From positions 1 through 29,757 of the IMG/VR virus record IMGVR_UViG_2534681675_000023: a DNA stretch of 29,757 bases; one strand, 5' to 3'. The notes under the pieces were generated by a model that ran no database searches, was not told the origin of the DNA, and saw nothing but the letters and a program-made list of their open reading frames with translations. Both the position numbers and the translations under genes were made by a program. Numbering within the stretch: position 1 is the stretch's first letter; each line of letters starts with the position of its first letter. Source of the DNA: a virus (Duplodnaviria > Heunggongvirae > Uroviricota > Caudoviricetes). This document shows positions 23-25,322 of this stretch, piece by piece.

Positions 23-1318
23 TTAATTTTTCACCACCTCGTTTTGGGGCATGGTTGGGGCAAACTCGCTTAGCTGTGTATTTAACAGGGCTACCTGTGC
101 ATTATTGTTTTCAGACATCCATTTCCCGTATACCTGAAACACCATTTGCGCATCTGCATGTCCCATCTGGTTTGCTATGAATGCCGGGTTGGCACCGGCT
201 GTCAACGACCAGCAGGCATAAGTATGTCTCGACTGATATGATTTGCGGTGGCGGAGGCCAGCGCGCTTTATCGCTGCGTCCCACATCTGCCTTATTGAGT
301 CAACGGTAAAATGGTCACCATAATTTTTTACTCTCGCTGACACTTCAGGTTGAAAAACAAAGGTGCATTTTTGTTTTTCTGTTCTGCCGAACTCTCTGAG
401 GTGAACGTCAATAATATGTTCTTTGCTCAGCCTCGTTAGTGTCATCTGACTCCTGAGAGCGTCGATTGCAGGCTTGATAAGGTGAATTACCCGATTGGTA
501 CCAGCCTGTGTTTTCGGTACCGTAAAACGATCTTTTGCTAAATTTCTCCTGATCATCATTGTTCCATTTTTCAGATCTATGTCCTCCCACCCAAGCGCAC
601 ACAGTTCACCAGGGCGAATGCCTGTATAAACAGAAACACACCATAAATTTTTGGCCTGCTGATTTCTGCAGGCGTCGATAAGACGGATAAATTCCTCCCG
701 TGAAAGAGGATCAGGAATGGTTCTTGATTCCTTTAATGGCGAGATCCCCTTAAACGGATTATCTGCCAGGTAACCGTTATCAACACCAAACTGGAACACG
801 GCGTTAAGATTTGTCATGTAATTATTTACAGTTACAGCCGATCTCCCTGGTTGTGTAACAATATAGTTACTTTTGGGGATCTGGTATCCAGTCAGTAGCT
901 CTTTACGAACCTCCAGTAATTTTTCTTTATTAATCGATGAGGCAAGATTTTTTTCACCGATTATGCTCAGGATATTTTTGATGACGGCACGGTATGTGTT
1001 GAGTGATGCTTTGGCGGCTTCAGTTTCTTTCAGTGCCAGAAATTTTTCAGCCAGTTCTTTTATGGTTAAATCTTGTCGGGCCTCACCAAATTTTTCCAGA
1101 TTGCGTGAGGAGGGAAACTGTTTTGCATAGTCGAAAACACCAGTTTTTATTGCGTAACAAACAGAGGAGCGTAGTTCACCTGCAACGCGCCTGTTTTTTG
1201 CTGTGTCAGGAACCCCCAGATTTTCCCTGACTCTTACGCCTTTATAAACAAACCAGATACGTAATTTCCCTCCATGGTTTTCCACGCCTGTCGGATATTT
1301 CATTTCAACTTCTCTCAT
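23..1318 (-). CDS. int: Phage tyrosine integrase (site-specific recombinase)
   Basis: 431-aa ORF; C-terminal catalytic region typical of lambda-family tyrosine recombinases (…RHTYACWSL…HADAQMVFQVYGKW… with terminal Tyr region), N-terminal arm-type DNA-binding-like segment; sits at prophage left end next to a small Xis-like ORF. Confidence 0.9.
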   Translation of the reverse strand: MREVEMKYPTGVENHGGKLRIWFVYKGVRVRENLGVPDTAKNRRVAGELRSSVCYAIKTGVFDYAKQFPSSRNLEKFGEARQDLTIKELAEKFLALKETEAAKASLNTYRAVIKNILSIIGEKNLASSINKEKLLEVRKELLTGYQIPKSNYIVTQPGRSAVTVNNYMTNLNAVFQFGVDNGYLADNPFKGISPLKESRTIPDPLSREEFIRLIDACRNQQAKNLWCVSVYTGIRPGELCALGWEDIDLKNGTMMIRRNLAKDRFTVPKTQAGTNRVIHLIKPAIDALRSQMTLTRLSKEHIIDVHLREFGRTEKQKCTFVFQPEVSARVKNYGDHFTVDSIRQMWDAAIKRAGLRHRKSYQSRHTYACWSLTAGANPAFIANQMGHADAQMVFQVYGKWMSENNNAQVALLNTQLSEFAPTMPQNEVVKN

Positions 1319-1337
1319 TAGTTAGTGTGGCTTTTAG

Positions 1338-1589
1338 TCAAGTAAGATGACGTCTTGGTCTCGCTGATGCCTGGCGCTCAATCCAGCGATCAATTTCTTC
1401 CAGGTTGTAAAAGCATGGACTGTTATCCCATGGCATACCGTCATGAGCGACATGCTTATATTCCCTTCCTTCCATAAACGATTTTTCCCGGGCCTTTTTT
1501 AACGTACCTTTTTTTATTCCTTTCAGCGCAATTAACTGCTCTTCGGATACCCATTTGCCGGGAGAGACAATCATGATTACTTCGCTCAT
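1338..1589 (-). CDS. Putative excisionase / small recombination directionality factor
   Basis: 83-aa basic ORF immediately upstream of int on the same strand (canonical xis position); no domain search was run, family assignment is by position and size. Confidence 0.55.
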   Translation of the reverse strand: MSEVIMIVSPGKWVSEEQLIALKGIKKGTLKKAREKSFMEGREYKHVAHDGMPWDNSPCFYNLEEIDRWIERQASARPRRHLT

Positions 1590-1661
1590 CGATTTCTTTA
1601 TCTCTTACATCAGACGAGCGCCGGTTGCAGAATACCAGTCACAACCGGCGACAGTTGAACA

Positions 1662-4133
1662 TTAAGAATCAGCCTGACTCGGGATCAGTTTTTGCCAGAT
1701 AACTGAAACGTATTTTGCCTGGTAACGGGCGTCATCAAGTGCATTATGGCGCTCACCTTCGAATGGAATAGCCGTTCTGGCATCGAAGTCTATGGCTTTC
1801 CCCAGCTCAACGATTGTGCGTACATCGCGATCGTTGTAGTAACGCCACGGGCAGGGGATCCCCTGCCGTTCGTATGAACGGCGCAAAATCGTGTTGTCGA
1901 AGTTGGCTCCATTTCCCCAGACCTGAACAAAAAATTCACCGGAGTTTTCGTCGATAAATTCCCGCAATTGTAACAGTGCATCATCTAACGGGATTTCATC
2001 GGTCATAATGGCAGATTGCGCTTCGCGTGATTGCTTAAGCCACCATTTAATGGTGTCCCGATCAATGACTCCGCCAGCAGTTTCCAGATCGATAGTCTTA
2101 CTAAATTCCGGTCCCATATCTCCGGTTTGCGGATCGAAAAATATTGCACCTATTGAGATAATCGGGGCATCAGGATTTTTTCCCATGGTTTCAAGGTCGA
2201 TCATTAGATGGTCACACGTCCTGCTGGTGGATGTGATAACGTGATGACCGTTCACCGCAATTAAGGGATCTGCCGTCTCGCCAGTTTCATTATTGCTGGC
2301 GTGGTCCTGAGCGCTGCCAGCATTCTCCTTGTGTGGATGTTCAGCGCCTTCCATTTCCTCCGGATCATTTTCCTGAACTTCAACCTGATTCTCTTCATCG
2401 AATGTTTCCTGGTATGTTGCGTCGCCCATCACCGCACCACAATCAGGGCAGTTGCCGCCGCCGGTCTGACCGCATGCGGTGCAGACTTTTTCCGCTTCCT
2501 GTTGCGCTACTGGCTCAGGTTGTTTCGTTTCTGGCTCGTTTTGTAACGCATTTGGGCTGTTTTGTTCTGCTTTCTGGTCGTTCTGTTCCGTTTCTTGCTG
2601 GTTCTGATTCACTGAATCGCGGGTTTCAATCCCCTTCACCCATTTCGGATCATTCGGGTCGCTAATCCCTGCAACAAATTCACCACGTGATACAGCAAGC
2701 AACTTATCGGCGTCAGGCTGGCTGATATTGGCTGCCTGCATAATTTTGTTTACTTCGTCAGCGGTAACTTTTACCGGCTCTGGTTGTGCGGTCGTGTCAG
2801 ATGCACCAGTATTTTGTTGTGAACCTGAGTATGTACCGTTTTTACGGGCAAAATATTCTTCTTTCGTGATTTCAGTAGCCCCTGCAGTCAGCGCCTTATT
2901 CAGACCAGAAAGTTTGTTTGCGCGACCATATTTTTCGCCATCCTTGTCGGTGAAGAGGAAGTAGAACGGCCCCTCACGCTCTACAGATGGTTCGACTTCC
3001 ACTTTGCATTCGGTTTTTTCGTTGTCCGGAATTGCCGTTTCCACTGCATCAGTTTCTGGTACTGGCGACGAGAGAGTATCAGTTGCGCTCTGATTTCTTC
3101 CTTCATCTTCAAACACGCCCTTTGTAGTCAGGTATTCAGTAATGTATTTGTTCAGTGTCACAGGGTCTTTGTGAATGTCGATCGGACGTTCACGGACAAG
3201 GCCAAAAATAGTCTGGCGGTCGTAGCGAAGGGCATCAGGCTGTTTGCGCATTGATGCCGAGATACGCTTCCAGTCTTCGCGGTCGTTGTCGATAACTTCA
3301 TTTTTTGCCCAGCGATGGATGCTGCCGTCAATGTTTCCGGCATCCACATCACCAGGCCAGAGAGCGTAGGCCAGTTCGTCATCCAGTGTTTTCCATGTCT
3401 GCTTGTATTCGCGATGAGTGGCAGCAATGACCGGGCTGATTTTTCCTGTTGAATTGTCAGTGTACTGTTGATTGGCTCTGGCGCGGGCGAGATCAACAAC
3501 AGACGTGTATTTTCCGGTTTCCTTGCGTTCACCTTCGCGACGTTTTTTCCAGATGCGCATCTCTGCCTGAATTTCGGGCCATTTAGCACCAGGAATACAT
3601 TTATGCTTAACCCACCCAATGGCGTGCAACTTAAGCTCCGGATACATGGCGTTAACTTCTGGCATTTTCATCAACGCTTCAACGATATGTCCGTCGAATG
3701 TTGCCATGTCTTCCTGCAACAATTCCTGTGCGCTAATAACCATATCAACGGTGATGTTTTCACATGTGTCGAACTTAACCAGGACCGCGTTCTGTACTTC
3801 AGGGGACAGCTTGTCAAAATTGACGTTCATCGGATCGGATTCTGGTTCGACCGGGACAAAGGAAGCGCCTTCCTCATCCCAGCGGTTTTCCAGCATATAT
3901 TCGGTATCCCAGGAGTCGATGGCAGGGCGGGGCATGCCGGGTTTATCCTCGCAGACAAGAAATTTATAAGCGCAGTCCTGAGCAGCCGGATATTGCTCCA
4001 GGAATTGCCAGGTAAATTTGGCTCGGGCGCGACGTTCGTCGCCGGCTTCAATGGCAGTGGCTACAGCGACTGCACCTTCTTCCTTTATTGCCTGTTCGTC
4101 CGGAATGGCGGCGCAAATAAAGACTTTACTCAT
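1662..4133 (-). CDS. Large early-left-operon exonuclease: C-terminal DEDDh (DnaQ-like) 3'-5' exonuclease domain, central Cys4 zinc-ribbon, RecE-like middle segment
   Basis: 823-aa ORF; C-terminus carries Exo I D-x-E (MIDLETMG), Exo II (NGANFDNTIL) and Exo III H-x4-D (HNALDDARY) motifs; CTACGQTGGGNCPDCG zinc-ribbon-like motif; segment DADKLLAVSRGEFVAGISDPNDPKWVKGIETRD matches, from memory, a conserved block of RecE (exonuclease VIII). Confidence 0.8.
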   Translation of the reverse strand: MSKVFICAAIPDEQAIKEEGAVAVATAIEAGDERRARAKFTWQFLEQYPAAQDCAYKFLVCEDKPGMPRPAIDSWDTEYMLENRWDEEGASFVPVEPESDPMNVNFDKLSPEVQNAVLVKFDTCENITVDMVISAQELLQEDMATFDGHIVEALMKMPEVNAMYPELKLHAIGWVKHKCIPGAKWPEIQAEMRIWKKRREGERKETGKYTSVVDLARARANQQYTDNSTGKISPVIAATHREYKQTWKTLDDELAYALWPGDVDAGNIDGSIHRWAKNEVIDNDREDWKRISASMRKQPDALRYDRQTIFGLVRERPIDIHKDPVTLNKYITEYLTTKGVFEDEGRNQSATDTLSSPVPETDAVETAIPDNEKTECKVEVEPSVEREGPFYFLFTDKDGEKYGRANKLSGLNKALTAGATEITKEEYFARKNGTYSGSQQNTGASDTTAQPEPVKVTADEVNKIMQAANISQPDADKLLAVSRGEFVAGISDPNDPKWVKGIETRDSVNQNQQETEQNDQKAEQNSPNALQNEPETKQPEPVAQQEAEKVCTACGQTGGGNCPDCGAVMGDATYQETFDEENQVEVQENDPEEMEGAEHPHKENAGSAQDHASNNETGETADPLIAVNGHHVITSTSRTCDHLMIDLETMGKNPDAPIISIGAIFFDPQTGDMGPEFSKTIDLETAGGVIDRDTIKWWLKQSREAQSAIMTDEIPLDDALLQLREFIDENSGEFFVQVWGNGANFDNTILRRSYERQGIPCPWRYYNDRDVRTIVELGKAIDFDARTAIPFEGERHNALDDARYQAKYVSVIWQKLIPSQADS

Positions 4134-4213
4134 TTTGTTTTAACCTCATTACAGATTTAAGGGTGAACAAATCCCTGCCATTGCTGGCATATAAAAATGA
4201 AACCGGATATTAA

Positions 4214-4471
4214 TTACGGTGCTGTTTTAAGTCCTGCCGGGATTTCGTTATTGTCCATGCGAATAACTTTCTCAACCGGATAACAGTTGCCGGGAATTTT
4301 CTGTTCCGCTGCGGCAGCCATGCATTCTTTCATTGAGTCATGTATACCAATAACAAGATCAACTGGCTCGCCCGTATTAAGAAAAACCGTTAGAACGAGT
4401 GCAAATGCTGTATTCATTGCCAGTATCCTTTTTGCATCAGACGTAAACGGGCCAGCATTGATACAATGCAT
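4214..4471 (-). CDS. Hypothetical small protein with N-terminal hydrophobic (signal/TM-like) segment
   Basis: 85-aa ORF (likely true start at internal MNTAFALVLTVFL…) in the early-left operon downstream of the exonuclease. Confidence 0.45.
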   Translation of the reverse strand: MHCINAGPFTSDAKRILAMNTAFALVLTVFLNTGEPVDLVIGIHDSMKECMAAAAEQKIPGNCYPVEKVIRMDNNEIPAGLKTAP

Positions 4472-4698
4472 ATTTGATTTAATAGCTCCCGTTCGTGTTT
4501 TCTCTTATTAATGGCATCTTCAGTAAATACAGGGTTACTGATTCTGACACCAATTTCAAAACAACCTTCAGACGTATTAACGTTTGGTAATAACGTTTCC
4601 ATTATCGCGTCCTCAACAATGAATTTTGTGATACGGTGCCTGGTGCCTCCAGGTGACGTTAACCAGTTAACAATTAACGCCGGATACAGAGAACCCAC
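4414..4698 (-). CDS. Hypothetical small protein (uncertain)
   Basis: 94-aa ORF overlapping the previous ORF by 58 nt in another frame; plausible internal start (METLLPNV…); coding status uncertain. Confidence 0.3.
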   Translation of the reverse strand: MGSLYPALIVNWLTSPGGTRHRITKFIVEDAIMETLLPNVNTSEGCFEIGVRISNPVFTEDAINKRKHERELLNQICIVSMLARLRLMQKGYWQ

Positions 4699-5354
4699 CC
4701 ATAAGAACCAATACGGAAGTCAACTGGCCTTTTTAACTGTTCCGCGTGCGCTTAGCCGCATTCACCGCATCACAAAATTCACTTTAAAAAGGGCGGCAGA
4801 GCAGTCACGGAGTAAAACTGATACCGCCAAACGTCACCAGAAAATTGATAACAGAGGGCGTTGCAGCGGGGTTGCCACTTAAGCGTATGGTCAACCTGAC
4901 AACCCGGTGTCCTCAACGGGGAAGGAATAACCCCGCCATACTTACCGCCGCGCCATTTCGCGGATTGCCACAACCGGAAGCGCACAGACGAAGATGTCAG
5001 TGGTACACAACAAAGGGAGGAATGACTTCGCCGTGCGCTTTCGCGTTATGCCCTGACTTTTCAGGGATATATCCTTTCAGTAAACTGTTTGTGCCGGATT
5101 CTTATCCGTGTCCGGCGCACGACCACGCGCTGTCACGTGTGGTCTCCATTCTCAACCAGTAACCTCAATGGAGGATAAAATTAAAATGGTCAGCAAACTA
5201 AATTAGACTCGCTGGAAGATTCATTATTAAACAGCGCGTTTAAATTATATTCTTGAATGTTTTGGGGATAACCTTGCTGCTGAGGAAGGCTATCCAAACC
5301 ATGTCGATGGTTTCGAAGCGATATATCTTTATCTATCCCGTAAACATGGATGGA

Positions 5355-5756
5355 CTATTTCACAGTGTCGTTTAATGCCACTGGATGATATTCGCCTTGC
5401 TCTTTCGTTAGAGCTATCAGGGTGGCGACTCCCTGATGATGCAAAGATTGACGACCATCATTCTCACGATGATATAAGTTGTTAAGTTCCAGTAGTTTGG
5501 CTTTTGCAATGGCCTCTACAGATTTCCAGAATTTGTGGGGGTCTGTACTCTCTTCCTGTTCGTCAGGAATGTTATTGTCCTCAACAGAAACAGAATACAG
5601 TCCGGTAAACGCATCGCGCACATTACGAGCCATATTATCAATGTCTTTTTTCGTTTCAGCTTCTAATGCAACTTCGTTCAGACGTTGACGAAGTGTATGT
5701 GCTGCAATTTCTTGGATTTCTTTTGGTAACTCTTTAAATTCCATAGTCAACCTCAT
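5355..5756 (-). CDS. Hypothetical acidic protein of early-left operon
   Basis: 133-aa ORF; likely start at MEFKELP (coordinate 5744) with GAGG 8 nt upstream; hydrophilic, helical-looking sequence. Confidence 0.55.
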   Translation of the reverse strand: MRLTMEFKELPKEIQEIAAHTLRQRLNEVALEAETKKDIDNMARNVRDAFTGLYSVSVEDNNIPDEQEESTDPHKFWKSVEAIAKAKLLELNNLYHRENDGRQSLHHQGVATLIALTKEQGEYHPVALNDTVK

Positions 5757-5986
5757 CAGTCAGTGTTTCTGGCTAACCAGCGATGCGCGCCAGTTTCGGT
5801 TTTAAACGTTTTGCTTTTGGTATATGTCATCGCGGTGAACGTACCGTCCTGGTTGGGGAACACGCCACATACCAGAGATTCGCTGTTGCCAAGATCGATA
5901 GTATCCATGCTGACCTCATTTCCCCTTAACGCCGGGGTGGCGGAACAAAAACCTGCTGCATAGTTAAAGTTGAACCCTGCCGTCAT
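5756..5986 (-). CDS. Hypothetical protein, first gene leftward of the repressor (no N-like arginine-rich motif)
   Basis: 76-aa ORF with GAGG about 9 nt upstream of ATG; occupies the position of lambda N but lacks an ARM motif. Confidence 0.5.
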   Translation of the reverse strand: MTAGFNFNYAAGFCSATPALRGNEVSMDTIDLGNSESLVCGVFPNQDGTFTAMTYTKSKTFKTETGAHRWLARNTD

Positions 5987-6076
5987 GTTCTTACGCCTCG
6001 GGCTGGCTACTTAACCCCTGACCACTGCCTGGTAACTCGAAGTATTGCCCTGCGTTCTGTGGGGCGGGGTGGTATA

Positions 6077-6106
6077 CTATAAAACTAAATCTATTTAGTT
6101 TTATAG
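6077..6106. promoter_or_regulatory. 30-bp near-perfect palindrome (OL-like operator) overlapping putative leftward promoter
   Basis: CTATAAAACTAAAT-CT-ATTTAGTTTTATAG: 14-bp arms are exact reverse complements; lies between cI-like gene and leftward operon; RC TTGACT at 6105-6110 could serve as -35 for leftward transcription. Confidence 0.5.
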
Positions 6107-6177
6107 TCAAGCGCGATCTAGATATATTTAAAAAAAGGTCGACAAAGCCGACCTCTGATTGAAAAACAAAGTGGAAG

Positions 6178-6828
6178 CTATAGGCTGAACTGCACACCTT
6201 TTGCTACAGCAACAATTTTACATTCAGGTGTCAGTAAGGACGATTGATAGCGAGGATTGAGGGGGCTTAAATACACGAGTTTTCCGTCGATGACTAATTT
6301 TTTTATAGTCATAGATGGTTCGTTTGTAAGCGGATCTGGGACTATTACAGCGACGATACTACCATTTTTATATTTTTCTCTAGGCCTCATGATCACTGTG
6401 GCACCAACCGGAATGCTTGGCGACCCTGATGGGTTGTGCATAGTGTCATCAGGCATTGAAACGGCAAAATCCCCCTCCTTGACGTCAAAGAATGTGGTGA
6501 TTCTGTCGGCATTTCCCATAGTTTTCTCTCCTTCTAAAATTAGGAAAGAAATTGCTTCCCCCCATGAAAGATAGGGGATTTGGGTGCCTGAATTGTTCTG
6601 CACAAGGGTAGGTTCAGTAGACGATACTCCATATAGGAGATAGGACTCAGTAGTTCCTAGTGCTTGGGCTAATTTACTAAGAGCTTTGCTACCGGGTTCG
6701 TTTAGGTCTTTCTCCCAGTACCCTATAGTTACCCCTGTTACGCCAGAAAGCTTGCCCAGTTCGACTTGGGTCAGTCCCTTGTCTTTTCTGAGTCTCTTAA
6801 GCCTAATGCCAAGGCTTTCCATCATCAT
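6178..6828 (-). CDS. CI-like prophage repressor (HTH-XRE N-terminus + LexA/S24 peptidase C-terminus)
   Basis: 216-aa ORF; N-terminal HTH (LTQVELGKLSGVTGVTIGYWE), C-terminal S24-type autocleavage domain; divergent from Cro-like gene. Confidence 0.9.
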   Translation of the reverse strand: MMMESLGIRLKRLRKDKGLTQVELGKLSGVTGVTIGYWEKDLNEPGSKALSKLAQALGTTESYLLYGVSSTEPTLVQNNSGTQIPYLSWGEAISFLILEGEKTMGNADRITTFFDVKEGDFAVSMPDDTMHNPSGSPSIPVGATVIMRPREKYKNGSIVAVIVPDPLTNEPSMTIKKLVIDGKLVYLSPLNPRYQSSLLTPECKIVAVAKGVQFSL

Positions 6829-6920
6829 CTCCCGTGAATTGAATATAAATTATTTTAGATTGCATTGACCTAAAAAAAATTATCCTTTAATCTAAAAATA
6901 CTTAGTTTTAGGAGGGTGAA
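6829..6920. promoter_or_regulatory. Divergent immunity-switch region (OR/PR/PRM-like) with 9-bp inverted repeats
   Basis: TTTTAGATT (6853-6861) and AATCTAAAA (6889-6897) are exact reverse complements; TTGACC at 6865-6870 as candidate -35; AGGAGGG RBS precedes cro-like ATG at 6921. Confidence 0.5.
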
Positions 6921-7148
6921 ATGCGAGTTGATGAACTTGTCCAGTTTTTTGGCTCTGTTCAGAGAGTTGCCGATTTTTATGGGATAACCCGTGAAGCTAT
7001 ATACATGTGGCGCAAACGTCCTGGTGAAATAGTTCCCAAGGGGAGGGCCGCGGAAGCTGCCGCATACTCCAAGGGAAAATTATCTTTGAACCCAGAACTT
7101 TACAAAAAGAAGGATAACACCTTGAACGAAGGAAAGAATGATTCATGA
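6921..7148 (+). CDS. Cro/YdaS-like small DNA-binding regulator
   Basis: 75-aa ORF divergent from repressor, strong RBS; HTH-like segment VADFYGITREAIYMWRKR. Confidence 0.8.
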   Translation: MRVDELVQFFGSVQRVADFYGITREAIYMWRKRPGEIVPKGRAAEAAAYSKGKLSLNPELYKKKDNTLNEGKNDS

Positions 7149-7570
7149 AAATCAAGCATGAACACATCCGCATGGCTATGAATGCCTGGGCGCGTCCGGA
7201 TGGTGAAAAAGTTCCGGCGGCCAAGATAACCAGGGCTTATTTCGAACTGGGAATGACGTCCCCGGAACTGTACGACGACAGCCATCCAGAAGCCCTGGCT
7301 CGTAATACTCAGAAAATTTTCCGCTGGGTGGAGAAAGACACCACTGATGCGGTTGAAAAAATTCAGGCGTTGTTACCAGCAATCGAAAAAGCAATGCCAC
7401 CTCTGCTGGTGGCCCGGATGCGCAGCCACAGTTCAGCCTATTTTCGGGAGTTGGTGGAGACGCGGGAACGACTGGTGAGAGACGCTGATGATTTTGTCGC
7501 AGTGGCAATCGCCGGTTTCAATCAGATGAATCGTGGTGGCCCGGCAGGAAATGCTGTGGTGATGCACTAA
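7145..7570 (+). CDS. YdaT/CII-like regulatory protein
   Basis: 141-aa ORF translationally coupled to cro-like gene (ATGA overlap); position and size match Rac ydaT-type genes. Confidence 0.7.
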   Translation: MKIKHEHIRMAMNAWARPDGEKVPAAKITRAYFELGMTSPELYDDSHPEALARNTQKIFRWVEKDTTDAVEKIQALLPAIEKAMPPLLVARMRSHSSAYFRELVETRERLVRDADDFVAVAIAGFNQMNRGGPAGNAVVMH

Positions 7571-7940
7571 AAGCACGGTGTTCGGGGTTTTTTATGAGCA
7601 GCAAGCTTCATGGTCTTGTCTGGGAAGGGTGCGCCTTCACCGGCATGATCTTATCCAGGGTGGCAGTAATGGCTCGCCTTGCAGACTACAGCAATGACGA
7701 AGGTGTGTCATGGCCTGCAGTGGAGACCATTCGTCGTCAGATTGGGGCAAAGAGTGAATCAACGGTTAAAGCGGCGATAGCGGAACTGGAAAAGAACGGC
7801 TGGCTGACGAAGGAGGAGCGTAAGGTCGGTGGGCGTAATGAAAGCAATATCTACCGCCTTAATGTGGAAAAACTCGAAGCAGCAGCTGAGGCGGCGCGTG
7901 AGGCATATAAACCGAAAAGAAAAATTAGCCCGGCAAAAAA

Positions 7941-8018: not shown

Positions 8019-8375
8019 TAAAAAACAGCCGGTTAGGGGGGCGATGGTTGGCCCCGATCCGTCAGTATTAAAACCTGATCCGTCAGATAAAAGATCTTTT
8101 CGTCCGGAAGCTTCGCAACCGGACCCGCAGACGGCTGAACAGGATTTTTTAACCCGACATCCTGATGCGGTTGTGTTTAGTGCAAAAAAACGTCAGTGGG
8201 GAACTCAGGAGGATTTGGCATGCGCACAGTGGATCTGGGGGCGAATCGTGAGTCTTTACGAACAGGCCGCCAGCGATGATGGCGAGATCACCCGACCGAA
8301 AGAACCCAACTGGACAGCATGTGAACCGCCCCGGAAATCCTGGAGACTAAACTTCCTGAGAAAGAGGTAAACAGG

Positions 8376-8702
8376 ATGACTAAAAATACTCGTTTTTCCC
8401 CCGAAGTCCGTCAACGCGCAGTTCGTATGGTTCTGGAAAGTCAGGGCGAATATGACTCACAATGGGCGGCAATTTGTTCCATTGCTCCAAAGATTGGCTG
8501 TACGCCAGAGACTCTGCGTGTCTGGGTTCGCCAGCATGAGAGGGATACCGGGAGCGGTGATGGTGGGCTCACCACCGCTGAACGTCAGCGTCTGAAAGAG
8601 CTGGAACGTGAAAATCGTGAACTGCGCCGCAGTAACGATATCCTTCGCCAGGCTTCCGCTTATTTTGCGAAGGCGGAGTTCGACCGCCTCTGGAAAAAAT
8701 AA
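8376..8702 (+). CDS. IS3-family transposase OrfA (HTH)
   Basis: 108-aa [22 protein letters not shown]…; recognised from memory as IS629-type OrfA; stop overlaps orfB start (TAATG). Confidence 0.9.
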
Positions 8703-9589
8703 TGCCACTGCTGGATAAGCTGCGTGAGCAGTACGGGGTCGGACCGGTATGCAGTGAACTGCATATTGCCCCGTCAACGTATTACCATTGTCAGCAGCAG
8801 CGGCATCATCCTGATAAACGCAGTGCCCGTGCGCAGCGCGATGACTGGCTGAAGAGAGAGATACAGCGCGTATACGATGAAAATCATCAGGTGTACGGTG
8901 TGCGTAAAGTCTGGCGTCAGTTGTTACGGGAAGGAATCAGGGTGGCCAGATGTACAGTGGCGCGCCTCATGGCGGTTATGGGACTTGCCGGTGTTCTCCG
9001 GGGTAAAAAGGTCCGCACTACCGTCAGCCGGAAAACCGTTGCCACAGGTGACCGCGTAAACCGTCAGTTCGTGGCAGAACGTCCTGACCAGCTGTGGGTG
9101 GCTGATTTTACTTACGTCAGCACATGGCAGGGCTTCGTCTATGTGGCGTTCATCATTGATGTGTTTGCCGGATACATCGTGGGGTGGCGGGTCTCATCGT
9201 CTATGGAAACGACATTCATGCTGGATGCGCTGGAGCAGGCGTTGTGGGCCCGTCGTCCGTCTGGCACCATCCATCACAGCGATAAAGGCTCTCAGTATGT
9301 GTCACTGGCCTATACGGAGCGACTAAAAGAAGCAAAACTGCTGGCATCAACAGGGAGTACAGGCGACTCGTATGACAACGCGATGGCTGAGAGCATCAAT
9401 GGTCTTTACAAAGCGGAGGTAATACACCGTAAGAGCTGGAAAAACCGTGCAGAAGTGGAACTGGCCACACTCACGTGGGTGGACTGGTATAACAATCGAC
9501 GATTGCTGGGAAGGCTGGGCCATACTCCTCCGGCAGAAGCAGAAAAAGCTTATTATGCTTCCATCGGAAACAATGATCTGGCAGCCTGA
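8702..9589 (+). CDS. IS3-family transposase OrfB (DDE catalytic domain)
   Basis: 295-aa ORF in -1 frame relative to orfA; DDE integrase-core motifs (…WVADFTYV…, …HSDKGSQY…, …DNAMAES…). Confidence 0.9.
   Translation: MPLLDKLREQYGVGPVCSELHIAPSTYYHCQQQRHHPDKRSARAQRDDWLKREIQRVYDENHQVYGVRKVWRQLLREGIRVARCTVARLMAVMGLAGVLRGKKVRTTVSRKTVATGDRVNRQFVAERPDQLWVADFTYVSTWQGFVYVAFIIDVFAGYIVGWRVSSSMETTFMLDALEQALWARRPSGTIHHSDKGSQYVSLAYTERLKEAKLLASTGSTGDSYDNAMAESINGLYKAEVIHRKSWKNRAEVELATLTWVDWYNNRRLLGRLGHTPPAEAEKAYYASIGNNDLAA

Positions 9590-23355: not shown

Positions 23356-25322
<1,967 letters not shown>

What the first reader, a model, noticed from the sequence alone, without database searches (positions are those of the whole stretch)
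1662..4133. 823-aa exonuclease combining a RecE-like middle block with a DEDDh 3'-5' exonuclease and no RecT/Beta partner
RecE proper ends in a PD-(D/E)XK 5'-3' exonuclease and pairs with RecT. This protein instead ends in a DnaQ-like DEDDh domain, has a Cys4 ribbon, and has no annealase gene nearby. The architecture suggests a domain-swapped early-region nuclease of unclear role (recombination, anti-defence, or host takeover).
Basis: partly seen in the sequence, partly recalled or inferred. Interest (0 to 1): 0.5.

Follow-up and report, generated by a model that had tools for sequence, protein, structure and literature searches.

The report
Intact YdfE prophage 3'-5' exonuclease
This is the full-length form of the E. 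coli prophage gene ydfE: a RecE-like scaffold carrying a DexA-type 3'-5' exonuclease instead of RecE's 5'-3' nuclease and lacking any annealase partner. It is very common and already catalogued, but nobody has tested what it does.

Summary
Window 1662-4133 (-) is an intact 823-aa ORF. Residues 262-626 are RecE-like and include a Cys4 motif. Residues 642-813 form a DEDDh exonuclease (Pfam Rv2179c-like, E 2.4e-67) with all five catalytic residues; its best structural match is T4 DexA. No annealase is detectable in the window or within 6 kb in 80 closely related loci.

The domain-swap reading is supported directly. Some E. coli proteins are 94% identical over residues 1-626 and then switch to RecE's PD-(D/E)XK nuclease, followed by recT. 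The DNA breakpoint lies at window nt ~2257-2266, which corresponds to K-12 RecE residue ~591.

The gene is not rare. It is the intact version of the K-12 pseudogene ydfE, the last gene of a dicBF-type early-left operon before xis and int. It matches PHROG 2082, and close homologues carry Pfam YdfE_N and YdfE_C. The nuclease-domain DNA is in 4053 of 5426 complete E. coli genomes.

Relatives combine two N-terminal modules with four C-terminal modules, one of them a Rad52-like annealase.

Most likely it is a tethered 3'-5' DNA exonuclease occupying the phage recombination slot. Its biological role is inferred, not shown. Interest is moderate to low.

The parts
1662..4133 (-). Whole ORF, 823 aa: the intact ydfE-type exonuclease
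   Evidence: ORF list. PHROG 2082 matches 1-822 of 823. The same DNA is 100% identical and annotated 'exonuclease' in E. coli Ceylon31, MFDS1022581 and MFDS1019527.
3474..4133 (-). aa 1-220: YdfE_N module, two folded domains (alpha/beta 1-~100, helical ~105-220)
3099..3401 (-). aa 245-345: helical domain D3, the block most widely shared across the RecE/YdfE superfamily
   Evidence: pLDDT above 90. 27% identical to RecE 295-368 of Rac-SA53 and aligned to K-12 RecE from residue 278. Detected in most of the 57 long relatives, whatever their N- or C-terminal module.
2829..2972 (-). aa 388-435: small beta-hairpin/helix domain D4 (GPFY...GRANK...EI..EE motif)
   Evidence: pLDDT about 94-96. The motif is conserved in the family consensus. 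It falls in a gap when aligned with K-12 RecE.
2256..2714 (-). aa 474-626: RecE-identical block, a disordered Q/N/E-rich acidic linker that contains the Cys4 motif
   Evidence: 75% identical to Rac-SA53 RecE 471-614 and near-identical to K-12 RecE 455-591. 82% identical to Rac recE at the DNA level. pLDDT is mostly below 50. dN/dS is 0.57-0.85 for aa 573-626.
2439..2483 (-). Cys4 motif: C551, C554, C562, C565 (C-x2-C-x7-C-x2-C)
   Evidence: Positions. Conserved in RecE. dN/dS is about 0.18 for aa 546-572. Zinc-ribbon profile matches are not significant.
2257..2266 (.). Mosaic breakpoint between the shared scaffold and the nuclease module
   Evidence: Homology to the PD-(D/E)XK allele (L007, 94.7%) ends at window nt 2257. 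Homology to Rac recE (82%) ends at nt 2266. At the protein level the junction is '...ADPLIA|VNGHH' at residue 626, equivalent to K-12 RecE residue ~591.
1695..2210 (-). aa 642-813: DEDDh 3'-5' exonuclease domain of the DexA/Rv2179c family
   Evidence: PF16473, E 2.4e-67. Catalytic residues D646, E648, D746, H796, D801. pLDDT about 85-96. Foldseek's best hit is T4 DexA. Free-standing genes of 180-190 aa, 57-87% identical, start exactly at M644.
23..1589 (-). Downstream context: excisionase (1338-1589) and integrase (23-1318), at the prophage end next to rspB
   Evidence: PHROG excisionase and integrase families. PGAP annotation of identical loci.
4214..6828 (-). Upstream operon context: ydfD-like DUF1482 (4214-4417), dicB (4414-4602), DicF sRNA (4791-4842), two small ORFs (5355-5744 and the ydfA-like 5756-5908), LexA/CI-type repressor (6178-6828)
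   Evidence: PGAP annotation of L003, shifted by 367 nt. Rfam DicF, 76.7 bits. PHROG repressor families. Same gene order as ydfABC-dicF-dicB-ydfD-ydfE in K-12 Qin.

Best explanation
The gene is the intact form of ydfE. It is the last gene of a repressor-controlled early-left operon of dicBF type in a Qin-like lambdoid prophage inserted next to rspB.

The protein has three parts:
- A folded N-terminal scaffold: YdfE_N domains 1-2, plus domains 3-4. Domain 3 is shared with RecE.
- A disordered acidic linker of about 170 residues that carries a Cys4 knuckle and is nearly identical to the corresponding part of RecE.
- A C-terminal, metal-dependent DEDDh 3'-5' exonuclease of the T4 DexA / Rv2179c family.

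It arose by, and still takes part in, in-frame module exchange at the end of the linker. The same scaffold is found with RecE's 5'-3' PD-(D/E)XK nuclease (followed by recT), with a Rad52-like annealase, or with this DEDDh nuclease.

Inferred mechanism: after the repressor is lost, the protein is made together with DicB, DicF and YdfD. The scaffold places the tethered nuclease on its target, most likely DNA ends or recombination and replication intermediates. The nuclease then removes nucleotides from free 3' ends. Because there is no dedicated annealase, it is not a RecET/Red-type two-component recombinase. Any recombination role would have to go through host functions, or the enzyme trims or destroys 3'-tailed DNA.

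Shown here: the architecture, the catalytic residues, the fold, the swap, the operon position, the absence of an annealase and purifying selection.

Inferred: the enzyme activity, DNA rather than RNA as substrate, and the biological role.
For: Architecture and family.

Catalytic residues and fold. T4 DexA, a characterised 3'-5' DNA exonuclease (PMC12153337), is the only PDB match by sequence and the best match by fold.

Swap: the allele with the PD-(D/E)XK nuclease is 94% identical over aa 1-626, and recT follows it. The DNA breakpoint is sharp, at nt 2257-2266.

Slot: the same position just upstream of xis and int is occupied by three alternatives. These are scaffold+RecE nuclease+recT, scaffold+Rad52-like annealase+Gp157, or a free-standing DEDDh gene.

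Combinatorial table: two N-terminal modules by four C-terminal modules, all eight combinations seen among 57 long relatives.

No annealase.

Selection: dN/dS 0.19-0.45 in folded parts. The nuclease-domain DNA is present in 4053 of 5426 complete E. coli genomes.

Operon under repressor control: same gene order as the K-12 dicBF operon, which DicA represses (PMC10448788).
Against: No activity, substrate or phenotype has been measured for this protein or any full-length relative. YdfE is described as uncharacterised (PMC10448788), and no functional paper turned up.

The Pfam family is named after an exoribonuclease. RNase T, Orn and REXO2 are nearly as good structural matches as DexA, so RNA or short oligonucleotides remain possible substrates.

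A 3'-5' exonuclease does not produce the 3' tails that annealases or RecA need, so a recombination role is not straightforward.

The N-terminal scaffold has no informative structural relative. The 'targeting' role is an inference from its being shared, not from any known activity.

In K-12, a transcript reaching ydfE was not detected (PMC10448788).

The 80 related loci are 93-98% identical, so they are not independent tests of annealase absence.
Confidence: 0.6

Rival explanations
1. Inter-phage defence nuclease (HREX-like). The DEDDh domain would digest incoming modified DNA, such as the 5hmC DNA of T-even phages. This would add to the exclusion functions of the dicBF operon.
For: A free-standing E. 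coli DexA homologue, EcD, digests T4 DNA in vitro and protects cells when carried on a plasmid (PMC12153337). That paper's Table S3 lists VUF53858.1 as a DexA homologue. VUF53858.1 is the 826-aa YdfE-type protein of phage Evi, whose gene is 91% identical to this one at the nucleotide level. The paper on DicB from the same operon reports, in its title, that DicB protects E. coli against phage infection (PMC6832061, listed; not read here).
Against: The DexA residues proposed to recognise 5hmC are not conserved. W152 aligns with Y766 and D169 with A780 (D782 lies two residues downstream). D90, which is lost in EcD, is retained here as D717. EcD is a different, small protein: its primers encode MIDTET... 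and ...TIPETYD. This gene sits in a repressed early-left operon. Its nuclease module alternates with RecE+RecT and with an annealase, which points to DNA metabolism of the phage itself. PADLOC gives only a generic DEDDh hit, E 1.9e-5.
Confidence: 0.17
2. An RNA or oligonucleotide exonuclease. It would be a 3'-5' exoribonuclease or nanoRNase (Rv2179c / RNase T / Orn-like) acting on transcripts, sRNA precursors, or nucleotide second messengers. That last case would be anti-defence by degrading signals.
For: Pfam names the family after the Rv2179c exoribonuclease, and PGAP often names these proteins '3'-5' exoribonuclease'. RNase T, Orn, REXO2 and the CBASS-associated Cap18 are all Foldseek matches at E around 1e-6. 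The gene lies in an operon whose sRNA, DicF, is made by RNA processing (PMC10448788).
Against: The best sequence and fold match is the DNA exonuclease DexA. The domain is tethered to a scaffold that otherwise carries DNA enzymes: the RecE nuclease and a Rad52-like annealase. DEDDh enzymes commonly accept both DNA and RNA, so the family name says little about substrate.
Confidence: 0.13
3. A functionless remnant. It would be a mosaic left over from recombination between prophages and kept only by hitch-hiking.
For: This particular prophage is decaying. IS2 splits its replication gene, and the IS21 genes in the late region are frameshifted; the portal gene is frameshifted in the 99.9% identical locus L003, beyond the end of this window. 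K-12 carries only a truncated ydfE. Split versions exist (L009).
Against: The ORF is intact at 823-830 aa in thousands of genomes and in isolated phages such as mEp460, HannyBb, Tritos and PhiR42_1. dN/dS is well below 1 in the folded domains. All catalytic residues are kept.
Confidence: 0.04

Closest known systems
RecE (exonuclease VIII) of the Rac prophage, with RecT
   Same: Same operon slot, early-left and just upstream of xis and int. Homologous central region: our aa 262-625 align with K-12 RecE 278-591. This includes the helical domain D3, the acidic linker and the Cys4 motif. Some alleles share the whole 626-residue N-terminal part with this protein and end in RecE's nuclease.
   Different: The C-terminal nuclease is DEDDh (3'-5'), not PD-(D/E)XK (5'-3'). 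No recT follows. The N-terminal ~240 residues are YdfE_N, not Pfam Exonuc_VIII. The score is far below the RecE equivalog cut-off, 285.7 against 1269 bits.
T4 DexA (exonuclease A; PDB 8KEL, 8KEN)
   Same: Same DEDDh fold and the same five catalytic residues. It is the best PDB match both by sequence (E 1.5e-6) and by fold (E 8.9e-9). It is a phage-encoded 3'-5' exonuclease (PMC12153337).
   Different: Only 25% identical. DexA is a free-standing 227-aa protein with extra loops. Its proposed 5hmC-recognition residues W152 and D169 are Y766 and A780 here. DexA has no N-terminal scaffold.
EcD / HREX (E. coli free-standing DexA homologue, PMC12153337)
   Same: An E. coli-encoded member of the same DEDDh family. 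The YdfE-type proteins were counted among DexA homologues in that study.
   Different: EcD is a different, small protein and was tested only from a plasmid. This protein keeps D717 where EcD has alanine, and lacks the Trp and Asp pair. It is fused to a 626-residue scaffold and lies in a repressed phage operon.
Mycobacterium tuberculosis Rv2179c (namesake of Pfam PF16473)
   Same: Same Pfam family, full-length match 2-177 of 177.
   Different: Rv2179c is a chromosomal, free-standing exoribonuclease, according to the Pfam description. phmmer did not retrieve a solved structure of it at E<=0.01. The context and domain fusion are different.
YdfE pseudogene of K-12 Qin, and Pfam YdfE_N / YdfE_C, PHROG 2082
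   Same: This is the same gene. aa 1-256 are 93% identical to K-12 YdfE, the operon is the same, and the PHROG match is full-length.
   Different: K-12 retains only the first 256 codons, cut by IS2E, so the nuclease cannot be seen in the reference strain. No function is attached to these families.

Membership tests
RecE / exodeoxyribonuclease VIII (NCBIfam NF007259 equivalog; RecET two-component recombinase) | C-terminal PD-(D/E)XK 5'-3' nuclease domain (RecE 564/606-866; Pfam PF12684-like) | tested here: not met
   There is no PF12684 hit in this protein, although RecE of Rac-SA53 has one. The alignment with RecE stops at residue 625/626. tblastn with the RecE nuclease domain finds nothing in the window.
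RecE / exodeoxyribonuclease VIII (NCBIfam NF007259 equivalog; RecET two-component recombinase) | Whole-protein score at or above the curated equivalog cut-off | tested here: not met
   285.7 bits against a cut-off of 1269.
RecE / exodeoxyribonuclease VIII (NCBIfam NF007259 equivalog; RecET two-component recombinase) | Adjacent RecT-family annealase gene | tested here: not met
   There is no RecT in the window or in 80 related loci. The gene is followed directly by xis and int. The PD-(D/E)XK alleles, by contrast, do have recT.
RecE / exodeoxyribonuclease VIII (NCBIfam NF007259 equivalog; RecET two-component recombinase) | Shared central region (helical domain, acidic linker, Cys4 motif) | tested here: met
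DEDDh (DnaQ-like) 3'-5' exonucleases, DexA / Rv2179c-like subfamily (Pfam PF16473) | Profile match above the gathering threshold, over the whole domain | tested here: met
   226.5 bits against 27; profile positions 2-177 of 177.
DEDDh (DnaQ-like) 3'-5' exonucleases, DexA / Rv2179c-like subfamily (Pfam PF16473) | Catalytic residues D-E-D-D plus His (Exo I, II and III motifs) | tested here: met
   D646, E648, D746, H796 and D801 align with the corresponding residues of DexA. They are invariant or at least 90% conserved in 20 homologues.
DEDDh (DnaQ-like) 3'-5' exonucleases, DexA / Rv2179c-like subfamily (Pfam PF16473) | DnaQ-like fold | tested here: met
   The AlphaFold2 domain has pLDDT 85-96. 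Foldseek matches: DexA E 8.9e-9, then a Cas-associated DnaQ domain, RNase T, Orn and REXO2.
DEDDh (DnaQ-like) 3'-5' exonucleases, DexA / Rv2179c-like subfamily (Pfam PF16473) | Metal-dependent 3'-5' exonuclease activity, and the substrate (DNA or RNA) | not testable with these tools
   This needs a nuclease assay with end-labelled substrates.
HREX / EcD-type 5hmC-DNA-specific defence exonuclease (PMC12153337) | Trp and acidic residue equivalent to DexA W152 and D169 | tested here: not met
   They align to Y766 and A780. D782 lies two residues downstream, in a loop whose alignment is uncertain.
HREX / EcD-type 5hmC-DNA-specific defence exonuclease (PMC12153337) | Loss of the tetramer-forming Asp (DexA D90, which is Ala in EcD) | tested here: not met
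   D717 is retained at that position.
HREX / EcD-type 5hmC-DNA-specific defence exonuclease (PMC12153337) | Protection against T4-like phages; selective digestion of 5hmC DNA | not testable with these tools
   This needs plaque assays and nuclease assays.
YdfE family (Pfam PF27430 YdfE_N + PF27432 YdfE_C; PHROG 2082) | Sequence membership | tested here: met
   PHROG 2082 matches 1-822 of 823, E 0. aa 1-256 are 93% identical to K-12 YdfE. Homologues 91-97% identical carry precomputed PF27430 and PF27432. The local Pfam copy lacks these two models.
YdfE family (Pfam PF27430 YdfE_N + PF27432 YdfE_C; PHROG 2082) | Position downstream of dicF, dicB and ydfD in the repressor-controlled early-left operon | tested here: met

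The most novel reading that the evidence does not exclude
The YdfE/RecE N-terminal region could be a general 'carrier' that delivers interchangeable DNA-end enzymes to one common target in the infected cell. The interchangeable modules are a 5'-3' PD-(D/E)XK nuclease, a 3'-5' DEDDh nuclease, a Rad52-like annealase and a fourth unknown module. On this reading the DEDDh form, present in about three quarters of E. coli genomes, would define an annealase-independent activity that has not been described. That activity could be an unconventional recombination or end-trimming pathway, or a nuclease used against competing phages.
Probability: 0.25. Interest if true: 0.6.

Novelty: new variant of a known kind. 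Interest (0 to 1): 0.35.

Why it matters
RecE's long N-terminal region has no known function, although full-length RecE is markedly better at linear-linear recombineering (PMC11611040).

Closely related scaffolds naturally carry nucleases of opposite polarity, or an annealase. That gives a concrete handle on what the region does, and a set of natural chimeras to test.

The result also corrects widespread annotations. These proteins are frequently labelled 'exodeoxyribonuclease VIII', and PHROG 2489 and 7838 are labelled 'exonuclease' although they end in a Rad52-like annealase.

The DEDDh form is about twice as frequent as recE in complete E. coli genomes (4053 against 1730 of 5426) but is invisible in K-12. 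As a result, a very common prophage early function has never been examined.

The protein family itself, however, is already catalogued. Nothing here overturns current understanding.

Tried and rejected
- The recollection that exoD of DLP12 is a fragment of this gene was tested and rejected. There is no similarity.

- The idea that EcD from the 2025 NAR paper is this protein's nuclease domain was rejected. The cloning primers encode MIDTET... and ...TIPETYD, which do not fit. No such sequence is among the 120 listed homologues of the nuclease domain, out of 1397 hits. The 3' primer's gene-specific sequence has no exact match in genome contigs or viral contigs, possibly because the gene was synthetic.

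- The sequence search of the PDB with the third C-terminal module found nothing. Its Rad52 relationship came instead from sub-threshold Pfam hits and from strong homology to proteins that NCBI names Rad52/Rad22.

- Internal translation start at M644, which would yield a free nuclease: there is only an AGGA 14 nt upstream, so this is not convincing.

- The promoter and terminator scan of 1200-7200 found fewer promoter-like sites than shuffled controls and was not informative.

- Literature searches for Rv2179c+prophage, ydfE and dicBF+exonuclease found no functional study.

- A context look-up for P0399 failed because the protein is not on record.
Full report
**1. What is at the coordinates**

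Window 1662-4133 on the minus strand is one uninterrupted ORF of 823 codons. It has an ATG start, with a GAGG about 10 nt upstream. The DNA is 100% identical to genes annotated 'exonuclease' in three complete E. coli genomes. It is 91-97% identical to genes of sequenced phages, among them mEp460, the PPompW phages, HannyBb, Tritos, PhiR42_1 and Evi. Some part of the gene matches 4800 of 5426 complete E. coli genomes. At least 80% of it is present in 3533 of them, often in several prophages per genome.

**2. Domain content**

- *Nuclease.* Pfam places a complete Rv2179c-like DEDDh exonuclease domain at aa 642-813, E 2.4e-67.
- *RecE-like part.* NCBIfam's RecE model (NF007259) matches aa 238-626 only, at 285.7 bits against an equivalog cut-off of 1269.
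- *Whole length.* PHROG 2082 ('exonuclease') matches end to end.
- *Catalytic residues.* D646, E648, D746, H796 and D801 align with those of T4 DexA. They are invariant or nearly so in 20 homologues.
- *Fold of the nuclease.* An AlphaFold2 model of aa 456-823 is confident for aa ~638-820. Its best PDB match is T4 DexA (8kel, E 8.9e-9). A Cas-associated DnaQ domain, RNase T, Orn, REXO2 and Cap18 follow. By sequence, DexA is the only PDB hit.
- *Fold of the N-terminal part.* A model of aa 1-470, built on 26 diverse relatives, has four confident domains: 1-~100, ~105-220, 245-345 and 388-435. Disordered linkers separate them. None has an informative structural relative.
- *Linker.* aa 456-637 are mostly predicted to be disordered.
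- *Cys4 motif.* C551, C554, C562 and C565 lie in the linker. RecE has the same motif, so it is a shared feature and not a difference.

**3. Relation to RecE**

Against K-12 RecE (866 aa), aa 262-625 align with RecE 278-591. The stretch 474-625 is almost identical to RecE 455-591. Similarity ends at RecE residue ~591. That lies inside the 564-866 nuclease region defined in a review of these enzymes (PMC11611040), which also states that the N-terminal part has no known function.

The first ~240 residues are not RecE-like. RecE has Pfam Exonuc_VIII there. This protein has the module that newer Pfam releases call YdfE_N, as shown by precomputed hits on homologues 91-97% identical.

**4. The swap can be seen directly**

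Four proteins of 900 aa (P0079, P0103, P0108, P0111) match the first 638 residues at 93-94% identity and carry PF12684 in place of PF16473. P0079 is 94% identical over aa 1-626, then continues as a PD-(D/E)XK domain that is 65% identical to K-12 RecE. In the two genomes examined (P0079, P0103), recT, lar and a DUF1187 gene follow immediately, then xis and int.

At the DNA level, homology between the window and that allele (94.7%) stops at nt 2257. Homology to Rac recE (82%) stops at nt 2266. The end of the shared linker is therefore a mosaic junction.

In complete E. coli genomes, the DEDDh module DNA occurs in 4053 of 5426. The RecE nuclease module occurs in 1730 of 5426. All four sampled full-length matches were annotated recE with recT.

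**5. Identity and context**

aa 1-256 are 93% identical to the product of the K-12 pseudogene ydfE (b1577), which is cut off by IS2E. Upstream in the window lie a ydfD-like gene, dicB, the DicF sRNA (Rfam, 76.7 bits), a ydfA-like gene and a LexA/CI-type repressor. Downstream are xis and int, at the rspB insertion site. This is the Qin dicBF operon layout.

In K-12, DicA represses that operon. YdfE is among its uncharacterised products, and a transcript reaching ydfE was not detected (PMC10448788).

**6. No annealase**

PGAP annotation of a 99.9% identical prophage lists none between int and the terminase. PHROG scans of the other ORFs give none. I ran tblastn with two RecT proteins, lambda Bet, Exo and Gam, P22 Erf and Abc2, two Rad52-like proteins, Gp157, Lar and the RecE nuclease domain. 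At E<=1e-4 it found nothing in the window or in 80 IMG/VR loci carrying this gene with up to 6 kb on each side. As controls, the nuclease domain was found in all 81 sequences, the YdfE N-terminus in 75 and DicB in 73. Those loci are 93-98% identical to the window, so they are not independent evidence.

**7. A wider modular family**

The N-terminal 470 residues have only 193 relatives at E<=0.001 among 1.84 billion cluster representatives. Among the 57 long ones, I classified modules with phmmer. Both N-terminal modules (YdfE_N and RecE's Exonuc_VIII) occur with each of four C-terminal modules: DEDDh, PD-(D/E)XK, a third module and a fourth.

The third module is labelled 'exonuclease' in PHROG 2489 and 7838. 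It gives sub-threshold Rad52_Rad22 hits in 7 of 13 members. It also has strong homologues (E about 1e-67, 40-44% identity) among free-standing proteins of ~243 aa. NCBI names some of these Rad52/Rad22 family, and some carry PF04098. In Yersinia prophages this fusion occupies the same slot, followed by a Sipho_Gp157 gene, xis and int.

Free-standing DEDDh genes of 180-190 aa, 57-87% identical, start exactly at M644. In Salmonella prophages they also sit just before xis and int. Some free-standing versions may instead be fragments of split genes, as in L009.

**8. What is known about relatives**

[quoted passage not shown] A 2025 paper reports that a small E. coli homologue, EcD, digests 5hmC DNA and protects cells against T4 when carried on a plasmid (PMC12153337).

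EcD is not this protein. However, that paper's homologue table includes the 826-aa YdfE-type protein of phage Evi.

The residues proposed there for 5hmC recognition, W152 and D169, align with Y766 and A780 here. D90 is retained as D717.

**9. Selection**

Compared with mEp460, dN/dS by region is:

| Residues | dN/dS |
|---|---|
| 1-240 | 0.22 |
| 385-505 | 0.19 |
| 546-572 (Cys4 motif) | 0.19 |
| 627-823 | 0.45 |
| 573-626 (acidic linker) | 0.85 |

**10. Interpretation**

Shown: a modular protein with an apparently active DEDDh site, on a RecE/YdfE scaffold, in the early-left recombination slot, without an annealase, and under purifying selection.

Inferred: that it is a tethered 3'-5' DNA exonuclease working on DNA ends or intermediates during prophage induction.

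The rivals cannot be excluded by computation. These are an HREX-like anti-phage nuclease, an RNA or oligonucleotide exonuclease (possibly anti-defence), and a functionless remnant. They are ranked in the rival-explanations section.

**11. Novelty**

The sequence family, its domain families and its gene name already exist in public resources, and the gene is extremely common. What had not been stated in the literature I could search:
- these 'ExoVIII' proteins carry a nuclease of opposite polarity to RecE;
- they lack an annealase;
- they belong to a combinatorial set of scaffold-plus-effector fusions that includes a Rad52-like annealase.

I rate it a variant of a known kind, of moderate to low interest.

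Noticed in passing
window 4791-4842 (-), with dicB 4414-4602 (-) and the ydfD-like gene 4214-4417 (-): A DicF sRNA gene (Rfam RF00039, 76.7 bits) lies in the otherwise ORF-poor stretch upstream of dicB. This part of the window is therefore a complete dicBF-type operon like that of K-12 Qin.
   Followed up: partly
window 8322-9631: An IS2 copy is inserted here, carrying its ALIL frameshift pseudoknot at 8657-8773. It is absent from the otherwise 99.9% identical prophage L003. It splits the O-like replication initiator gene that starts at 7594, so this prophage copy is probably replication-defective.
   Followed up: partly
window ~23356-25322: IS21-family istA and istB lie between the lysis genes and bor. 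Both are annotated as frameshifted in the identical locus L003. The portal gene is also frameshifted there, which is further evidence that the prophage is decaying.
   Followed up: no
window 14409-14583 (+): A sok antitoxin RNA (Rfam RF01794, 108 bits) sits next to a partial hok/gef gene.
   Followed up: no
window ~10000-14100: This is a low-GC island (GC 0.37-0.44). Four ORFs there have no PHROG match: 10797-11141, 11211-11663, 12202-12834 (-) and 13717-14055 (-). They sit beside a zeta-toxin-family ATPase at 12854-13552 (-). It may be a moron or defence cargo.
   Followed up: no
P0131, P0154, P0165, P0184 and others; loci L016/L017 5001-6467: Proteins in PHROG 2489 and 7838 are labelled 'exonuclease', but they consist of the YdfE_N scaffold fused to a Rad52-like annealase of ~270 aa (motif KKSLTDAxKKALSxLGFSAD). 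In Yersinia prophages they are followed by Sipho_Gp157, xis and int. The annotation is probably wrong, and the fusion itself is unusual.
   Followed up: partly
P0125, P0218, P0220, P0230, P0251, P0257, P0213 (C-terminal ~250 aa; PHROG 26058): A fourth C-terminal module is attached to the same scaffolds. It has no Pfam match and no function assigned.
   Followed up: no
window 2256-2414 (aa 573-626): The acidic linker just before the mosaic junction has dN/dS of 0.57-0.85, against 0.1-0.3 in neighbouring segments. At the DNA level, though, it is the stretch conserved between recE and ydfE-type genes. That pattern would fit a role as the crossover site for module exchange.
   Followed up: partly
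locus L009 737-3127: Here the gene is split into three consecutive ORFs of 456, 157 and 183 aa. The last is a 183-aa DEDDh protein starting at the equivalent of M644. Some 'free-standing' homologues may therefore be fragments of disrupted long genes.
   Followed up: no
annotations seen: Many records name this protein 'exodeoxyribonuclease VIII' or 'Exodeoxyribonuclease encoded by cryptic prophage CP-933P', although it lacks RecE's nuclease domain. The name comes from the shared central block.
   Followed up: yes
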